From Escherichia coli (GTDB lineage Bacteria > Pseudomonadota > Gammaproteobacteria > Enterobacterales > Enterobacteriaceae): a DNA stretch of 64,000 nucleotides. A program made the translations under genes and the position numbers. Each line of letters opens with the position of its first letter. Position 1 is the stretch's first letter. Below are positions 14,680 to 18,599 of the stretch, in pieces. The stretch lies in assembly GCF_003018255.1 (NCBI RefSeq), contig NZ_CP027440.1. One strand, written 5' to 3'. The notes beneath the pieces were generated by a model. The model was given only the letters and a program-made list of their open reading frames with translations. It did no database searches and was not told the DNA's origin.

Positions 14680-14887
14680 ACCATACTCCTCTGGACTGAA
14701 ACATCCTGATTAATTTTCGCTACTACATAGCCTAACAGATAGATCATCACTTTTCCGGCAACAATCGAGCGCATCATGGCTAACTGGAATTTTTAATTCA
14801 TGGCAATTAGCGGCAATGGAATATAAAATTCACTCGCGTGTGTCTCATATTGCCTGTTGTCGCCACTATTTCATCGCGAGGAAAGAT

Positions 14888-15736
14888 ATGAACGGCTTAC
14901 TTCGTATCCGTCAGCGTTACCAGGGGCTTGCCCAAAGTGATAAAAAACTGGCGGATTATCTGCTGCTACAACCTGATACGGCGCGCCATTTAAGCTCTCA
15001 GCAACTGGCCAACGAAGCCGGAGTCAGTCAGTCCAGCGTCGTGAAGTTCGCGCAAAAACTCGGCTATAAAGGTTTTCCGGCACTTAAGTTGGCGTTGAGT
15101 GAAGCGCTGGCAAGCCAGCCGGAATCTCCCTCCGTGCCCATTCATAACCAAATCCGCGGTGATGATCCGTTACGGCTGGTCGGCGAAAAACTGATTAAAG
15201 AAAATACTGCCGCTATGTACGCAACGTTAAACGTTAATAGTGAAGAGAAACTGCATGAATGCGTGGCAATGTTGCGCTCTGCGCGGCGGATAATTCTGAC
15301 CGGTATTGGCGCTTCGGGTCTGGTGGCGCAAAACTTTGCCTGGAAGCTGATGAAGATTGGCTTCAATGCTGCCGCAGTGCGCGATATGCATGCGCTACTC
15401 GCTACAGTACAGGCGTCGTCCCCTGACGATCTGTTATTAGCCATTTCCTACACCGGTGTACGACGCGAGTTAAACCTGGCGGCAGATGAGATGCTGCGAG
15501 TGGGCGGAAAAGTGCTGGCGATTACCGGCTTTACTCCCAATGCCCTGCAACAGCGTGCTTCTCATTGCCTGTATACCATTGCCGAAGAACAAGCGACAAA
15601 CAGTGCTTCAATCTCTGCTTGTCACGCGCAGGGAATGTTAACGGATTTGCTGTTCATTGCGCTGATTCAGCAGGATCTGGAACTGGCTCCAGAACGTATT
15701 CGTCACAGTGAAGCGCTGGTGAAAAAACTGGTCTGA
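14888..15736 (+). CDS. murR: RpiR-family transcriptional regulator (HTH + SIS domain)
   Basis: N-terminal HTH and C-terminal SIS domain; start at ATG 14888 preceded by GAGGAAAG. Confidence 0.8.
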   Translation: MNGLLRIRQRYQGLAQSDKKLADYLLLQPDTARHLSSQQLANEAGVSQSSVVKFAQKLGYKGFPALKLALSEALASQPESPSVPIHNQIRGDDPLRLVGEKLIKENTAAMYATLNVNSEEKLHECVAMLRSARRIILTGIGASGLVAQNFAWKLMKIGFNAAAVRDMHALLATVQASSPDDLLLAISYTGVRRELNLAADEMLRVGGKVLAITGFTPNALQQRASHCLYTIAEEQATNSASISACHAQGMLTDLLFIALIQQDLELAPERIRHSEALVKKLV

Positions 15737-15755
15737 GTAAAGAATGCGCGTATAA

Positions 15756-16052
<297 letters not shown>

Positions 16053-16199
16053 TATTCTACCCTGGATGTAGAGTGTTAATTATTTTATAGAGAAACCTTA
16101 ACGCTATTATATTTATTTGATTGATGACATTAGCATAATTATTCACTAAGTTAATTTATATAGTATCTGCCCAGACACTTATTTATAGTTATTAAAGGC

Positions 16200-16223
16200 G
16201 CGTCCGACTGGTTCACCGGACGC
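16200..16223 (-). terminator. Hairpin (GCGTCCG-N10-CGGACGC) just downstream of shoB
   Basis: Perfect 7-bp stem 23 bp beyond the shoB stop on the minus strand. Confidence 0.4.
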
Positions 16224-16245
16224 ACCTTAAGTACGTTTCCTTGTG

Positions 16246-16326
16246 TTATAAGAACAGAAGGATCAGCTGTAAAACAGCAATGATGATTTTGATAATCCGT
16301 TTAATCAGGTATCGGCAATCAGTCAT
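16246..16326 (-). CDS. shoB: Type I toxin ShoB (26-aa hydrophobic peptide)
   Basis: Translates to MTDCRYLIKRIIKIIIAVLQLILLFL; below the ORF-track size cut-off; yfhL-acpS intergenic position matches the shoB-ohsC locus. Confidence 0.8.
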   Translation of the reverse strand: MTDCRYLIKRIIKIIIAVLQLILLFL

Positions 16327-16401
16327 TCGTTTTTCCTTAAACAAGGAATGCAGCCGTTCAGATTAGCCCTTACATCACCCCAAAACTGAACGTGCGAGTT
16401 A

Positions 16402-16420
16402 TTGGAATCGAGTGCTGCAC
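16402..16420 (+). repeat. 19-bp direct repeat, copy 1 (TTGGAATCGAGTGCTGCAC)
   Basis: Matches copy 2 at 18 of 19 positions. Confidence 0.6.
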
Positions 16421-16650
16421 TCCACACCAGAGCTTTGACGACACCACTCGTTTCAATGGGGGAATTCAGTGGCATGGTGTAAAGCACAGCAAAATTGCCA
16501 ATAACGAAACCGATTTTAATGTACTTATCAAAAAGCGGTCACGTTAATCTTTTTATCAATGTCGATTTCTTCGTAAAGGCTCGCGTTTTTTATGTCAGAG
16601 ATTGCAAGTTGCTTGTACAGGATAACGAAATTGATCCATAATCATTTCTG

Positions 16651-16669
16651 TTGGAATCGTGTGCTGCAC
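16651..16669 (+). repeat. 19-bp direct repeat, copy 2 (TTGGAATCGTGTGCTGCAC)
   Basis: Matches copy 1 at 18 of 19 positions; 249 bp downstream of copy 1. Confidence 0.6.
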
Positions 16670-16689
16670 AAAATTAAAGTTGTAAAGTG

Positions 16690-16722
16690 AAAACCCCCGT
16701 TCCTTACCAGTTCGGGGGTTTT
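16690..16722 (-). terminator. Rho-independent terminator downstream of acpS
   Basis: AAAACCCCCG-N13-CGGGGGTTTT hairpin flanked by A/T runs (could act bidirectionally). Confidence 0.6.
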
Positions 16723-16747
16723 ACTTTATAAAGAGAACGGTATTTTT

Positions 16748-17128
16748 TTAACTTTCAATAATTACCGTGGCACAAGCATAGTGGCGTTCATCTGCCAGCG
16801 TTACATGCATATTTACAACGCCGAGCTTTTCCGCCAGTTTTAATGCCTCACCCCATAGCCGTAGCCGTGGTTTGCCGAGCTCATCATTGAATACTTCAAA
16901 TTGATTAAACGCCAGACCATTGCGGATCCCGGTGCCAAACGCTTTTGCCGCCGCTTCTTTCACAGCAAAACGCTTCGCCAGAAAACGCACCGGCTGGTGG
17001 TGCGTTTTCCAGATTGCCCATTCGTTATCGCTTAATACGCGGCGTGCCAGGCGCTCACCGGATCGGGCGATCACCGCTTCTATGCGAGCGATCTCCACAA
17101 TATCCGTACCTAAACCTAATATTGCCAT
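16748..17128 (-). CDS. acpS: Holo-[acyl-carrier-protein] synthase
   Basis: 126-aa ORF starting [16 protein letters not shown]. Confidence 0.95.
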
Positions 17129-17859
17129 TAGCCACGCGCTTCCAGCATCAGACGCTTCATTTCTGCCACCGCATCTTTCAGTCCGGTCATCACTGCACGA
17201 CCAATAATGGCATGACCGATATTCAGTTCATGCATCTCAGGGATGGCGGCAATAGCTTTCACGTTGTGATAGGTCAGACCGTGACCAGCGTTAACTTTCA
17301 GACCGAGACTAGCGGCAAAGGTCGCGGCTTTGGCGATACGCGCCAGCTCTTGCGCCTGTTCGGCGTCAGTTTTGGCATCAGCATAGCAACCGGTGTGGAT
17401 CTCGATAAACGGTGCGCCAACCTCTGCCGCAGCTTTGATCTGCTCTTCATCGGCGTCGATAAACAGAGAAACCGGGATCCCGGCCTCCGCCAGACGTTTA
17501 CAGGCATCGCGCATTTTGTCACGCTGCCCTGCGACGTCCAGGCCGCCTTCGGTTGTTACTTCCTGACGCTTTTCCGGTACCAGACAGCAAAAATGTGGCT
17601 TCGTCTCAACGGCGATCGCCAGCATCTCTTCGGTCACCGCCATCTCCAGATTCATGCGGGTATCCAGCGTCTGACGCAGGATGCGCACATCGCGGTCAGT
17701 AATGTGGCGGCGATCTTCACGTAAATGCACGGTAATGCCGTCCGCTCCCGCCTGCTCAGCAATAAACGCCGCCTGCACCGGATCCGGGTAAGCAGTACCG
17801 CGTGCGTTACGCAGCGTTGCAATATGGTCAATGTTGACGCCTAACAGTAATTCAGCCAT
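17128..17859 (-). CDS. pdxJ: Pyridoxine 5'-phosphate synthase
   Basis: 243-aa product starting [21 protein letters not shown]. Confidence 0.95.
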
Positions 17860-17870
17860 GACAATCCTCA

Positions 17871-18599
17871 TCATTCATAATGTGTTTTCACCGTTCGCTT
17901 AGGCATAAACTGCCGGAACAGTTCCCTGCTCTTTAATGGTTTACCGCCAAGATACGGCTTAAGCGCCATGCGGGTAAAGCGTTTCGCGGCGCGCAGTGTG
18001 TCTGCGTCAGGAAATTCCCGCGCGTTTAACGCTTTTAACTGCCTTCCGGTGAACGTTTTATTGTCGATAACGACGCTTGCGATAAACCCTTTTTCTTCGC
18101 GATAACGATACGTCATGGTGTCATCTACCGGCTCGCCGCTACCCGCACAATGGGTAAAATTGACGCCATAGCCCAGATGCCCGAGCAGTGCCAGTTCAAA
18201 GCGACGCAGCGCGGGTTCTGGCGTACCAGTGGCACCTGCAAGTGACTGAATGCAGTGCAAGTAATCGAAAAAGAGTTCAGAGAAGCGCGTCTCGTATTCC
18301 AGTACGCGGGAGAGAAGTTCGTTGATGTACAGACCGCTGTAAAGCGTGATACCGCTTAATGGCAGCGCCAGCGAGACAGCTTCAGCACTGCGCAGTGTTT
18401 TGACTTCACCACGCCCACCGAAGCGAAGCAAGAGAGGGGTGAAAGGTTGTAATGCACCTTTCAGAGTAGAGCGTTTAGAGCGTGCGCCTTTGGCAACCAG
18501 ACGCACGCGACCCGATTCCTCCGTGAAGACGTCCAGCATCAGGCTGGTTTCGCTCCACGGGCGACTATGCAGGACAAATGCGCGCTGCCAGCCTTCCAT
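17871..18599 (-). CDS. recO: DNA repair protein RecO
   Basis: 242-aa ORF starting [19 protein letters not shown]. Confidence 0.95.

What the first reader, a model, noticed from the sequence alone, without database searches (positions are those of the whole stretch)
16200..16700. shoB-ohsC type I toxin-antitoxin locus hidden in the yfhL-acpS spacer
A 26-codon ORF (16246..16326, minus strand) encodes MTDCRYLIKRIIKIIIAVLQLILLFL, a short hydrophobic peptide of the ShoB class, too small for the ORF track. In K-12 this spacer holds shoB and the divergent antisense sRNA ohsC. I can place the toxin ORF with confidence but not the exact ohsC ends. The roughly 700-bp spacer has no protein-coding ORF and contains several hairpins.
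Basis: partly seen in the sequence, partly recalled or inferred. Interest (0 to 1): 0.5.

Follow-up and report, generated by a model that had tools for sequence, protein, structure and literature searches.

The report
Known shoB-ohsC toxin-antitoxin locus
The spacer holds the well-known E. coli shoB toxin gene and its OhsC antitoxin RNA, so the finding is correct but ordinary; this strain carries a second version of the RNA-RNA recognition sequence, changed in matching fashion on both partners.

Summary
The observation and the interpretation are both confirmed, and the locus is already known.

- **Toxin:** the 26-codon ORF at 16246..16326 (-) is ShoB. It matches K-12 ShoB at 25 of 26 residues (V11I). 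It lies in the 695-bp yfhL-acpS spacer.
- **Antitoxin:** It lies at 16650..16729 (+), with an Rfam RF02495 score of 95.4 bits against a threshold of 50.
- **Pairing:** the OhsC 5' end (16651..16669) and a site in the shoB leader (16402..16420) form a 19-nt direct repeat. The site is 76-94 nt upstream of the AUG. The two divergent RNAs can therefore pair.
- **Allele difference:** compared with K-12, 7 bases of an 8-nt block inside this repeat are replaced. The replacement is the same at both sites except for one central base, which gives a U:U mismatch.
- **Population count:** in 5,426 complete E. coli genomes the two versions are almost perfectly coupled.
  - 1,683 genomes carry the window type at both sites.
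  - 3,509 carry the K-12 type at both sites.
  - One recombinant is mismatched in one direction; none was found in the other.

A 2024 survey left open whether shoB-ohsC pairing potential is kept in each strain. These counts answer that in silico. The repression mechanism is inferred from published K-12 work: pairing far upstream of a sequestered ribosome-binding site, with RNase III cleavage.

The parts
16246..16326 (-). shoB coding sequence: 26 codons plus a TAA stop. The peptide is MTDCRYLIKRIIKIIIAVLQLILLFL, the I11 allele.
   Evidence: Annotated as shoB in the 100%-identical strain RM14723. This exact 81-nt allele occurs in 77 of 5,426 genomes.
16333..16347 (-). Ribosome-binding-site hairpin. 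The Shine-Dalgarno AAGGAA (16338..16333) pairs with the upstream UUCCU (16347..16343).
   Evidence: Minimum-energy fold. Probability that the SD is unpaired is about 0.1 in all alleles and transcript forms tested. The sequence is invariant in all alleles aligned.
16402..16420 (-). OhsC target site in the shoB 5' UTR, about nt 87-105 of the mRNA and 76-94 nt upstream of the AUG. The allele-specific block is 16405..16412. The A at 16411 gives the U:U mismatch.
   Evidence: Direct repeat of 16651..16669. Duplex energy -34.2 kcal/mol. Pair counts.
16398..16505 (-). Predicted long 5' hairpin of the primary shoB transcript. Nt 2-32 pair with nt 78-109 and bury the constant half of the OhsC site.
   Evidence: 5' end against target region, -38.8 kcal/mol. 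The same fold is predicted in all 12 alleles. It agrees with published K-12 data: the full-length leader is inactive and a 5' end about 40 nt downstream is active (PMC5066626, PMC7708055).
16186..16506 (-). Predicted shoB mRNA of about 320 nt, with a 5' UTR of about 180 nt. The start is placed from the promoter position, not mapped.
   Evidence: Inferred from the promoter (PMC11264685) and the terminator fold. Fold energy z-score -5.3.
16513..16542 (-). shoB promoter: -35 GTGACC (16542..16537) and -10 TAAAAT (16518..16513).
   Evidence: Promoter scan. These are the same hexamers given for shoB in PMC11264685.
16195..16228 (-). shoB intrinsic terminator hairpin: 13 bp with an 8-nt loop, followed by UUUAAUAA.
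16613..16642 (+). ohsC promoter: -35 TTGTAC (16613..16618) and -10 CATAAT (16637..16642). The transcription start is G16650.
   Evidence: PMC11264685 lists TTGTAC in 33.1% of strains and CATAAT in 100%.
16650..16729 (+). ohsC antitoxin sRNA of 80 nt. The 5' seed is 16651..16669 and the terminator hairpin is 16682..16729.
   Evidence: Rfam RF02495, 95.4 bits. Ends transferred from NC_000913.3 ohsC through the alignment. Fold.

Best explanation
This is the chromosomal shoB-ohsC type I toxin-antitoxin locus of E. coli, carrying the minority 'W' recognition allele. shoB is transcribed leftward from about 16506 as an mRNA of about 320 nt. Its 180-nt leader folds so that the ribosome-binding site sits in a small hairpin. 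The first 32 nt or so pair with nt 78-109. By analogy with K-12, this primary transcript is translationally inert, and a form shortened by about 40 nt is active (published for K-12, inferred here). OhsC is an 80-nt RNA made divergently from 16650. Its first 20 nt pair with nt 86-105 of the shoB leader. The duplex has 19 standard or G:U pairs and one U:U mismatch. Because this site lies 76-94 nt upstream of the AUG, repression must be indirect. The most likely routes are blocking the single-stranded 'standby' entry site that ribosomes need to reach the sequestered binding site, and RNase III cleavage of the duplex. ShoB itself is a 26-residue hydrophobic membrane peptide that is toxic when overproduced (published, not tested here). 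Relative to K-12, the recognition sequence was swapped as a block on both partners, so pairing is kept within a strain and weakened between allele classes.
For: Identity of the locus:
- The peptide matches K-12 ShoB at 25 of 26 residues.
- Synteny is yfhH-yfhL-shoB-ohsC-acpS-pdxJ-recO.
- The Rfam ohsC hit scores 95.4 bits against a threshold of 50.
- Both promoters match the published hexamers.

Pairing:
- The 19-nt direct repeat is visible in the sequence.
- Cognate duplexes are -34.2 (W) and -41.4 (K-12 type) kcal/mol. Cross-allele duplexes are -21.5 to -27.7.
- 6 of 20 pairs change on both sides between alleles, and 97% of cells are paired.

Coupling in 5,426 genomes:
- W/W 1,683.
- K/K 3,003 plus 506 with a G:U wobble.
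- K-target with W-OhsC: 1. W-target with K-OhsC: 0.

Structure:
- The leader fold has a z-score of -5.3, with the SD and AUG paired.

Literature:
- The OhsC 5' end has 19 nt of complementarity to the shoB 5' UTR (PMC3919570).
- The full-length leader is inactive and a form starting about 40 nt downstream is active (PMC5066626, PMC7708055).
- An RNase III cleavage site was detected in the shoB/OhsC duplex region in vivo (PMC6212723).
Against: - Nothing here measures transcription, toxicity or repression in this strain.
- The shoB transcription start and the processed 5' end are transferred from K-12, not mapped.
- Thermodynamic folds do not show how OhsC binding changes access to the ribosome-binding site. 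The SD hairpin stays closed in the full-length and the shortened form, with or without OhsC.
- The W duplex carries a central U:U mismatch and is about 7 kcal/mol weaker than the K-12 duplex.
- One natural strain with a mismatched pair and an intact shoB exists, so perfect pairing is not essential for viability.
- The NCBIfam library has no ShoB model, so no profile test of the peptide was possible.
Confidence: 0.9

Rival explanations
1. The locus is the same, but repression works through a dinQ-like structural switch instead of standby competition. In the shortened mRNA the OhsC target region would pair with the anti-SD strand and free the ribosome-binding site. OhsC binding would release the anti-SD strand, which then re-closes the SD hairpin.
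For: The target region and the anti-SD strand are complementary (GGAGUGCAGC with GCUGCAUUCC, -19.6 kcal/mol). This is stronger than anti-SD with SD (-6.9). The 5' end, the anti-SD strand and OhsC all carry a GCUG(C/U)(A/G) motif that pairs with the same invariant half of the target. That could explain why this half never varies. Kristiansen et al. proposed this model for shoB (PMC5066626).
Against: Global minimum-energy and partition-function folds keep the SD hairpin closed (P unpaired about 0.1) in the shortened window mRNA, whether or not the OhsC site is blocked. There are no probing data for shoB.
Confidence: 0.3
2. Repression works through a hok/mok-like leader ORF. A reading frame spanning the leader, whose TGA overlaps the shoB ATG, would be translated and coupled to shoB. 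OhsC would block that translation.
For: The whole leader, 16505..16323 (-), is a single open frame ending in ATGA at the shoB start. It is open in every allele and in three Escherichia species representatives. PMC4147584 leaves a Sok-like mode open for these loci.
Against: No Shine-Dalgarno sequence precedes its AUG or GUG. OhsC pairs more than 50 nt downstream of those starts, not at them. Every substitution seen in the frame is nonsynonymous, including LDS to CTL in the seed block. 11% of shuffled leaders have an open frame by chance.
Confidence: 0.04
3. The matched change at the two sites is only linkage. Two sites 249 bp apart in one haplotype block travel together, with no selection for pairing.
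For: All single-base differences between 16405 and about 16690 co-segregate with the seed allele in the sampled strains. The pattern traces to essentially one historical event. A mismatched recombinant is viable.
Against: Linkage cannot explain why the same 8-nt block, with the same new bases at 6 of 7 changed positions, appears at both sites while the 40 nt flanking the target are invariant. Haplotypes of the yfhL-proximal 140 bp, a similar distance away, occur with both seed alleles. Target and seed are uncoupled in only 1 of 5,388 genomes.
Confidence: 0.15
4. The locus is a decaying remnant in this lineage, given the mismatch in the duplex and the substitution in the toxin.
For: There is a U:U mismatch in the duplex. 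The V11I change occurs in only 77 of 5,426 genomes. An extra G at 16689 forms a bulge in the OhsC terminator stem.
Against: The promoters, SD, start codon, ORF length, terminators and leader fold are all intact. The U:U mismatch is shared by at least 99% of the 1,696 W-type genomes, including O157:H7 and ST131 lineages. V, I and A at residue 11 are conservative hydrophobic variants.
Confidence: 0.03

Closest known systems
shoB-ohsC of E. coli K-12 (b4687 / b4608; Fozo et al. 2008)
   Same: The genomic position, gene order and orientation are the same. The peptide matches at 25 of 26 residues. Both promoters, the SD, the leader fold, the OhsC terminator and the 19-20 nt pairing between the OhsC 5' end and the shoB leader are the same.
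   Different: The spacer is only about 91% identical. The 8-nt recognition block is GGAATCG(A/T) here and AGGGTGCA in K-12, at both sites. The duplex has a central U:U mismatch and is about 7 kcal/mol weaker. The ohsC -35 is TTGTAC, not TTGTAA. ShoB has I11 where K-12 has V11.
tisB/istR-1 of E. coli (standby-site model)
   Same: The antitoxin is divergent. About 20 nt of pairing at the antitoxin 5' end lies far upstream of a sequestered ribosome-binding site. The primary transcript is inert and is activated by 5' shortening. The duplex is cleaved by RNase III (PMC4147584, PMC7708055, PMC6212723).
   Different: The sequences are unrelated. shoB has no LexA control. The standby mechanism has not been shown for shoB.
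zorO-orzO / zorP-orzP of E. coli O157:H7
   Same: The layout is divergent, with an 18-nt 5' seed and a leader of about 174-180 nt that both inhibits and enhances translation. A few seed differences separate specificity classes (PMC3919570, PMC5397157).
   Different: In zor/orz the two specificities sit side by side as paralogues in one genome. Here the two shoB/ohsC specificities are alleles of a single-copy locus in different strains.
dinQ-agrB of E. coli
   Same: A four-element leader in which the antitoxin site can pair either with the 5' end or with the anti-SD strand. This was proposed for shoB in PMC5066626, and the complementarity is present here.
   Different: The switch is not supported by global folding of the window allele. 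The sequences are unrelated.

Membership tests
ShoB type I toxin | Short hydrophobic peptide (26 aa) with sequence identity to K-12 ShoB | tested here: met
   25 of 26 residues identical to K-12 ShoB. The identical DNA is annotated as shoB (WP_000128775.1) in RM14723.
ShoB type I toxin | Match to a curated protein profile | tested here: inconclusive
   NCBIfam returned no family for either the window peptide or K-12 ShoB. The library has no usable model. The peptide is too short for the Pfam tool.
ShoB type I toxin | Chromosomal position between yfhL and acpS, single copy | tested here: met
   There is one place per genome, never on plasmids, in 5,420 genomes.
ShoB type I toxin | Long structured 5' UTR with a sequestered ribosome-binding site | tested here: met
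   In silico only. The leader is about 180 nt, the fold z-score is -5.3, and the SD and AUG are paired.
ShoB type I toxin | Toxic (membrane damage, growth arrest) when overproduced | not testable with these tools
   Published for K-12 ShoB (PMC5066626, PMC12022103). The I11 allele has not been tested.
OhsC antitoxin sRNA (Rfam RF02495) | Covariance-model score above the curated gathering threshold | tested here: met
   95.4 bits against 50, E = 1.8e-15, full model length 1-77, at 16650..16727 (+).
OhsC antitoxin sRNA (Rfam RF02495) | Transcribed divergently from shoB, with its own promoter and terminator | tested here: met
   Promoter-like site TTGTAC / CATAAT. Terminator hairpin followed by a U-rich tail. 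In silico only.
OhsC antitoxin sRNA (Rfam RF02495) | 5' end complementary over about 19 nt to the shoB 5' UTR | tested here: met
   20 positions, of which 19 are standard or G:U pairs and one is U:U. Duplex energy -34.2 kcal/mol.
OhsC antitoxin sRNA (Rfam RF02495) | Represses ShoB synthesis | not testable with these tools
   Published for K-12 only.
hok/sok-type leader-ORF coupling | Translated leader ORF overlapping the toxin start, with the antisense RNA acting at the leader ORF's start | tested here: not met
   An open frame with an ATGA overlap exists. It has no SD and no coding constraint, and the OhsC site lies more than 50 nt downstream of its start codons.
Standby-type regulation (tisB/istR-1-like); 'works like', not membership | Antitoxin site far upstream of a sequestered ribosome-binding site, and activation by 5' processing | tested here: inconclusive
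   The distance (76-94 nt) and the sequestration are met in silico. The processing and the standby step are known only from K-12 literature (PMC7708055).

The most novel reading that the evidence does not exclude
E. coli carries two mutually poorly compatible 'address' classes of the single-copy shoB-ohsC pair. The K-12 type occurs in about 68% of genomes and the window type in about 31%. The classes arose by a block replacement copied to both halves of a 19-nt direct repeat. Selection for cognate pairing keeps them coupled, so only 1 of about 5,400 genomes is mismatched. Only the 8-nt block is free to vary. The other half of the site must also pair with the mRNA's own 5' end and possibly with the anti-SD strand. 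If this is right, OhsC from one class would not control shoB from the other. The lone recombinant strain Z1323CEC0015 would then be a natural derepression mutant.
Probability: 0.5. Interest if true: 0.4.

Novelty: already known. Interest (0 to 1): 0.2.

Why it matters
[quoted passage not shown] The modest added value is for specialists. A 2024 survey of over 2,000 strains (PMC11264685) reported large variation in the shoB-ohsC pairing regions. It stated that sufficient pairing within each strain could not yet be confirmed. The counts here show that the variation is compensatory and almost perfectly coupled across 5,426 genomes.

This gives sequence-level support for the predicted pairing. It defines two natural specificity alleles ready for cross-repression tests. 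It also points to one natural mismatched strain.

Tried and rejected
- **Primary paper:** Fozo et al. 2008 (PMID 18710431, PMC2597788) is not held. The mapped K-12 5' ends are therefore quoted second-hand from PMC5066626 and PMC7708055.
- **Protein profile:** NCBIfam found nothing for ShoB.
- **Terminator scan:** the simple scan found no site in the spacer, because both real terminators fall outside its loop and U-run rules. The folds show them.
- **Leader ORF:** the 54-aa (60-codon) frame was considered as a mok-like element and rejected.
- **Switch versus standby:** accessibility and constraint folding could not decide between a dinQ-like switch and a standby model. The SD stays closed in every state.
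- **Outgroup scan:** a degenerate ShoB peptide pattern run against one genome per species found only 3 Escherichia representatives, all K-12 type. No third, independent seed allele was found.
- **Third co-varying site:** mRNA nt 11, A in W and G in K, was examined as a possible co-varying site at the mRNA 5' end. It was judged too weak to claim.
- **Not attempted:** metagenome and viral scans, because E. coli genomes already answered the question.

Full report
**1. The observation**

The minus strand of 16246..16326 carries ATG, 25 further codons and TAA. It encodes MTDCRYLIKRIIKIIIAVLQLILLFL. The neighbouring genes set the context:
- yfhH at 14816..15736 (+);
- yfhL ending at 16052 (+);
- acpS at 16748..17128 (-), followed by pdxJ and recO.

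The spacer is therefore 16053..16747, 695 bp. Its longest mechanical ORF is 54 aa.

**2. Identity of the locus**

The spacer matches 5,425 of 5,426 complete E. coli genomes. The match is always chromosomal, with one place in nearly every genome (median 1, at most 2). It is 100% identical to strain RM14723, where the ORF is annotated as 'type I toxin-antitoxin system toxin ShoB'.

The reference K-12 record annotates shoB (b4687) and the sRNA ohsC (b4608) in the same spacer. The window aligns to K-12 without rearrangement at about 91% identity. The peptide differs from K-12 ShoB only at residue 11 (I for V). A and V also occur at that residue in other strains, and C4Y at residue 4 in one. The exact window allele is found in 77 of 5,426 genomes.

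An Rfam scan of 15000..18000 at a permissive threshold gives one real hit. It is ohsC_RNA (RF02495) at 16650..16727 (+), at 95.4 bits against a gathering score of 50. Transferring the K-12 ends through the alignment gives 16650..16729.

**3. Anatomy**

*shoB, minus strand.*
- The promoter is -35 GTGACC (16542..16537) and -10 TAAAAT (16518..16513). These are the hexamers listed for shoB in PMC11264685. They place the start near 16506, which is an inference.
- The terminator hairpin is at 16228..16195.
- The resulting RNA of about 320 nt folds far better than shuffles (z = -5.3).
- Nt 2-32 pair with nt 78-109, forming the hairpin at 16505..16398.
- The SD AAGGAA (16338..16333) pairs with UUCCU just upstream.
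- The AUG is also paired.

*ohsC, plus strand.*
- The promoter is -35 TTGTAC (16613..16618) and -10 CATAAT (16637..16642), with the start at G16650.
- The 5' end is largely unstructured.
- A strong terminator hairpin lies at 16682..16729.

**4. How the two RNAs meet**

On the plus strand, 16402..16420 (TTGGAATCGAGTGCTGCAC) and 16651..16669 (TTGGAATCGTGTGCTGCAC) form a direct repeat. The two genes are transcribed from opposite strands. The OhsC 5' end is therefore complementary to nt 86-105 of the shoB mRNA.

The duplex spans 20 positions, including one G:U pair and one central U:U mismatch. Its energy is -34.2 kcal/mol. The site lies 76-94 nt upstream of the AUG, so OhsC cannot mask the ribosome-binding site directly.

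Published work on K-12 says:
- the OhsC 5' end has 19 nt of complementarity to the shoB 5' UTR (PMC3919570);
- the full-length leader gives no reporter activity, while a 5' end about 40 nt downstream does (PMC5066626, PMC7708055);
- an RNase III cleavage site is seen in the duplex region in vivo (PMC6212723);
- the mode of repression is undecided between a standby-site model and another translational element (PMC4147584).

My folds agree with the first part. Removing 30-40 nt frees the constant half of the OhsC site, and its probability of being unpaired rises from about 0 to about 0.35-0.5.

The folds do not settle the last step. The SD hairpin remains closed in every state modelled. This holds even though the target region is complementary to the anti-SD strand at -19.6 kcal/mol, against -6.9 for anti-SD with SD. 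That complementarity is what the dinQ-like model of PMC5066626 requires.

I therefore commit to indirect repression from an upstream site, accompanied by RNase III cleavage. Standby competition is somewhat more likely than a structural switch.

**5. What differs from K-12**

Inside the 19-nt repeat, an 8-nt block (16405..16412 and 16654..16661) differs from K-12 at 7 positions, and it does so at both sites:
- window: GGAATCG(A/T);
- K-12: AGGGTGCA.

The 40 nt on either side of the target are invariant. Counted formally on five distinct allele pairs, 6 of 20 duplex pairs change on both sides and 97% of cells are paired. Sliding the register by 1-3 columns drops pairing to 25-46%. Cross-allele duplexes lose 7-20 kcal/mol relative to the cognate ones.

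**6. Population test**

I built 88-nt queries from a 46-nt target piece and a 42-nt ohsC piece. Their flanks are too short to seed a megablast hit unless the allele-specific block matches. Results in 5,426 genomes:

| Target piece | ohsC piece | Genomes with either piece | Genomes with both pieces |
|---|---|---|---|
| Window type (W) | W | 1,696 | 1,683 |
| K-12 type (K) | K | 3,706 | 3,003 |
| K | K with A-to-G change (G:U wobble) | 3,697 | 506 |
| K | W | 5,388 | 1 |
| W | K (either variant) | 5,280 | 0 |

About 197 K-target genomes carry other ohsC variants, such as the O145 type seen in locus L007.

The single discordant genome is Z1323CEC0015. It is a clean recombinant whose breakpoint lies between the two promoters, and its shoB is intact.

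By contrast, haplotypes of the yfhL-proximal 140 bp occur with both seed types. Recombination therefore does shuffle this spacer at similar distances.

The three Escherichia species representatives that carry ShoB all have the K type. The window type is probably derived.

My W frequency of 31% matches the 33.1% reported for the linked ohsC -35 variant TTGTAC.

**7. Interpretation of the co-variation**

Linkage alone cannot produce the same new block at two sites. Two routes could: gene conversion between the repeat copies, or compensatory selection. I cannot tell them apart.

The variation is confined to the half of the site that lies in, or next to, an internal loop of the leader hairpin. The invariant half also has to pair with the mRNA's own 5' end (-38.8 kcal/mol) and possibly with the anti-SD strand. 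This offers a reason why only the block is free to change, but it remains an inference.

[quoted passage not shown] It also said pairing potential could not yet be validated. The counts above address that point in silico.

**8. Rejected readings**

- **Leader ORF.** The leader is one open frame whose TGA overlaps the shoB ATG. It has no SD, all its substitutions are nonsynonymous, 11% of shuffles give such a frame, and OhsC does not pair at its start. It is not a mok-like ORF.
- **Decaying locus.** The locus is not decaying. All signals are intact, and the U:U mismatch is shared by at least 99% of W-type genomes.

**9. Verdict**

The finding is correct and the locus is already known. Its interest as a discovery is low. 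The allele-level result is a small, testable addition for people working on type I toxin-antitoxin systems.

Noticed in passing
window 16682..16729: The OhsC terminator is nearly palindromic and also matches the Rfam ohsC model on the minus strand (25 bits). It lies 18 nt downstream of the acpS stop codon. It probably acts as a bidirectional terminator shared by ohsC and the pdxJ-acpS transcript. Read-through from acpS would run into shoB in the sense direction.
   Followed up: partly
window 16053..16190: The AT-rich stretch next to yfhL has at least four divergent haplotypes among E. coli strains. They assort independently of the shoB/ohsC seed allele. Most of it (78 nt) is deleted in Escherichia sp. 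MOD1-EC7003 (locus L014). Its function is unknown.
   Followed up: partly
window 16323..16505 (-): The entire shoB leader is one stop-free reading frame whose TGA overlaps the shoB ATG (ATGA at 16326..16323). It is open in all alleles seen. It shows no coding constraint and has no Shine-Dalgarno sequence, and 11% of shuffles give an open frame.
   Followed up: yes
locus L016 (NZ_CP148423.1, strain Z1323CEC0015), 741080-743172: This is the only genome of about 5,400 with a K-12-type shoB target and a window-type OhsC seed. It is a recombinant with its breakpoint between the shoB and ohsC promoters, and its shoB ORF is intact. It is a natural mismatched toxin-antitoxin pair.
   Followed up: partly
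locus L011 (NZ_CP144930.1, strain SCPM-O-B-9504): An IS5-like ISKpn26 element occupies the shoB side of the spacer. No shoB is annotated, and the shoB ORF and target motifs are not found, while ohsC is still present. This is an antitoxin-only strain of the kind mentioned in PMC11264685.
   Followed up: no
locus L015 (NZ_CM172720.1, strain FCI29): This W-type strain has a 1-nt insertion inside the OhsC target site (GGAATCGAGCTGCTGCAC) and a variant ShoB protein. The duplex would carry a bulge.
   Followed up: no
window 16613..16618 and 16689: The ohsC -35 is TTGTAC here and TTGTAA in K-12. It overlaps the variable CpxR box CB2 of PMC11264685 and is linked to the seed allele. The window lineage also has an extra G at 16689 that forms a bulge in the OhsC terminator stem.
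   Followed up: partly
window 16411 / 16660: The U:U mismatch in the centre of the duplex is fixed in at least 99% of window-type genomes. The neighbouring position is an A-U or G:U pair in K-12-type genomes. The middle of the duplex seems to tolerate, or favour, imperfect pairing.
   Followed up: partly
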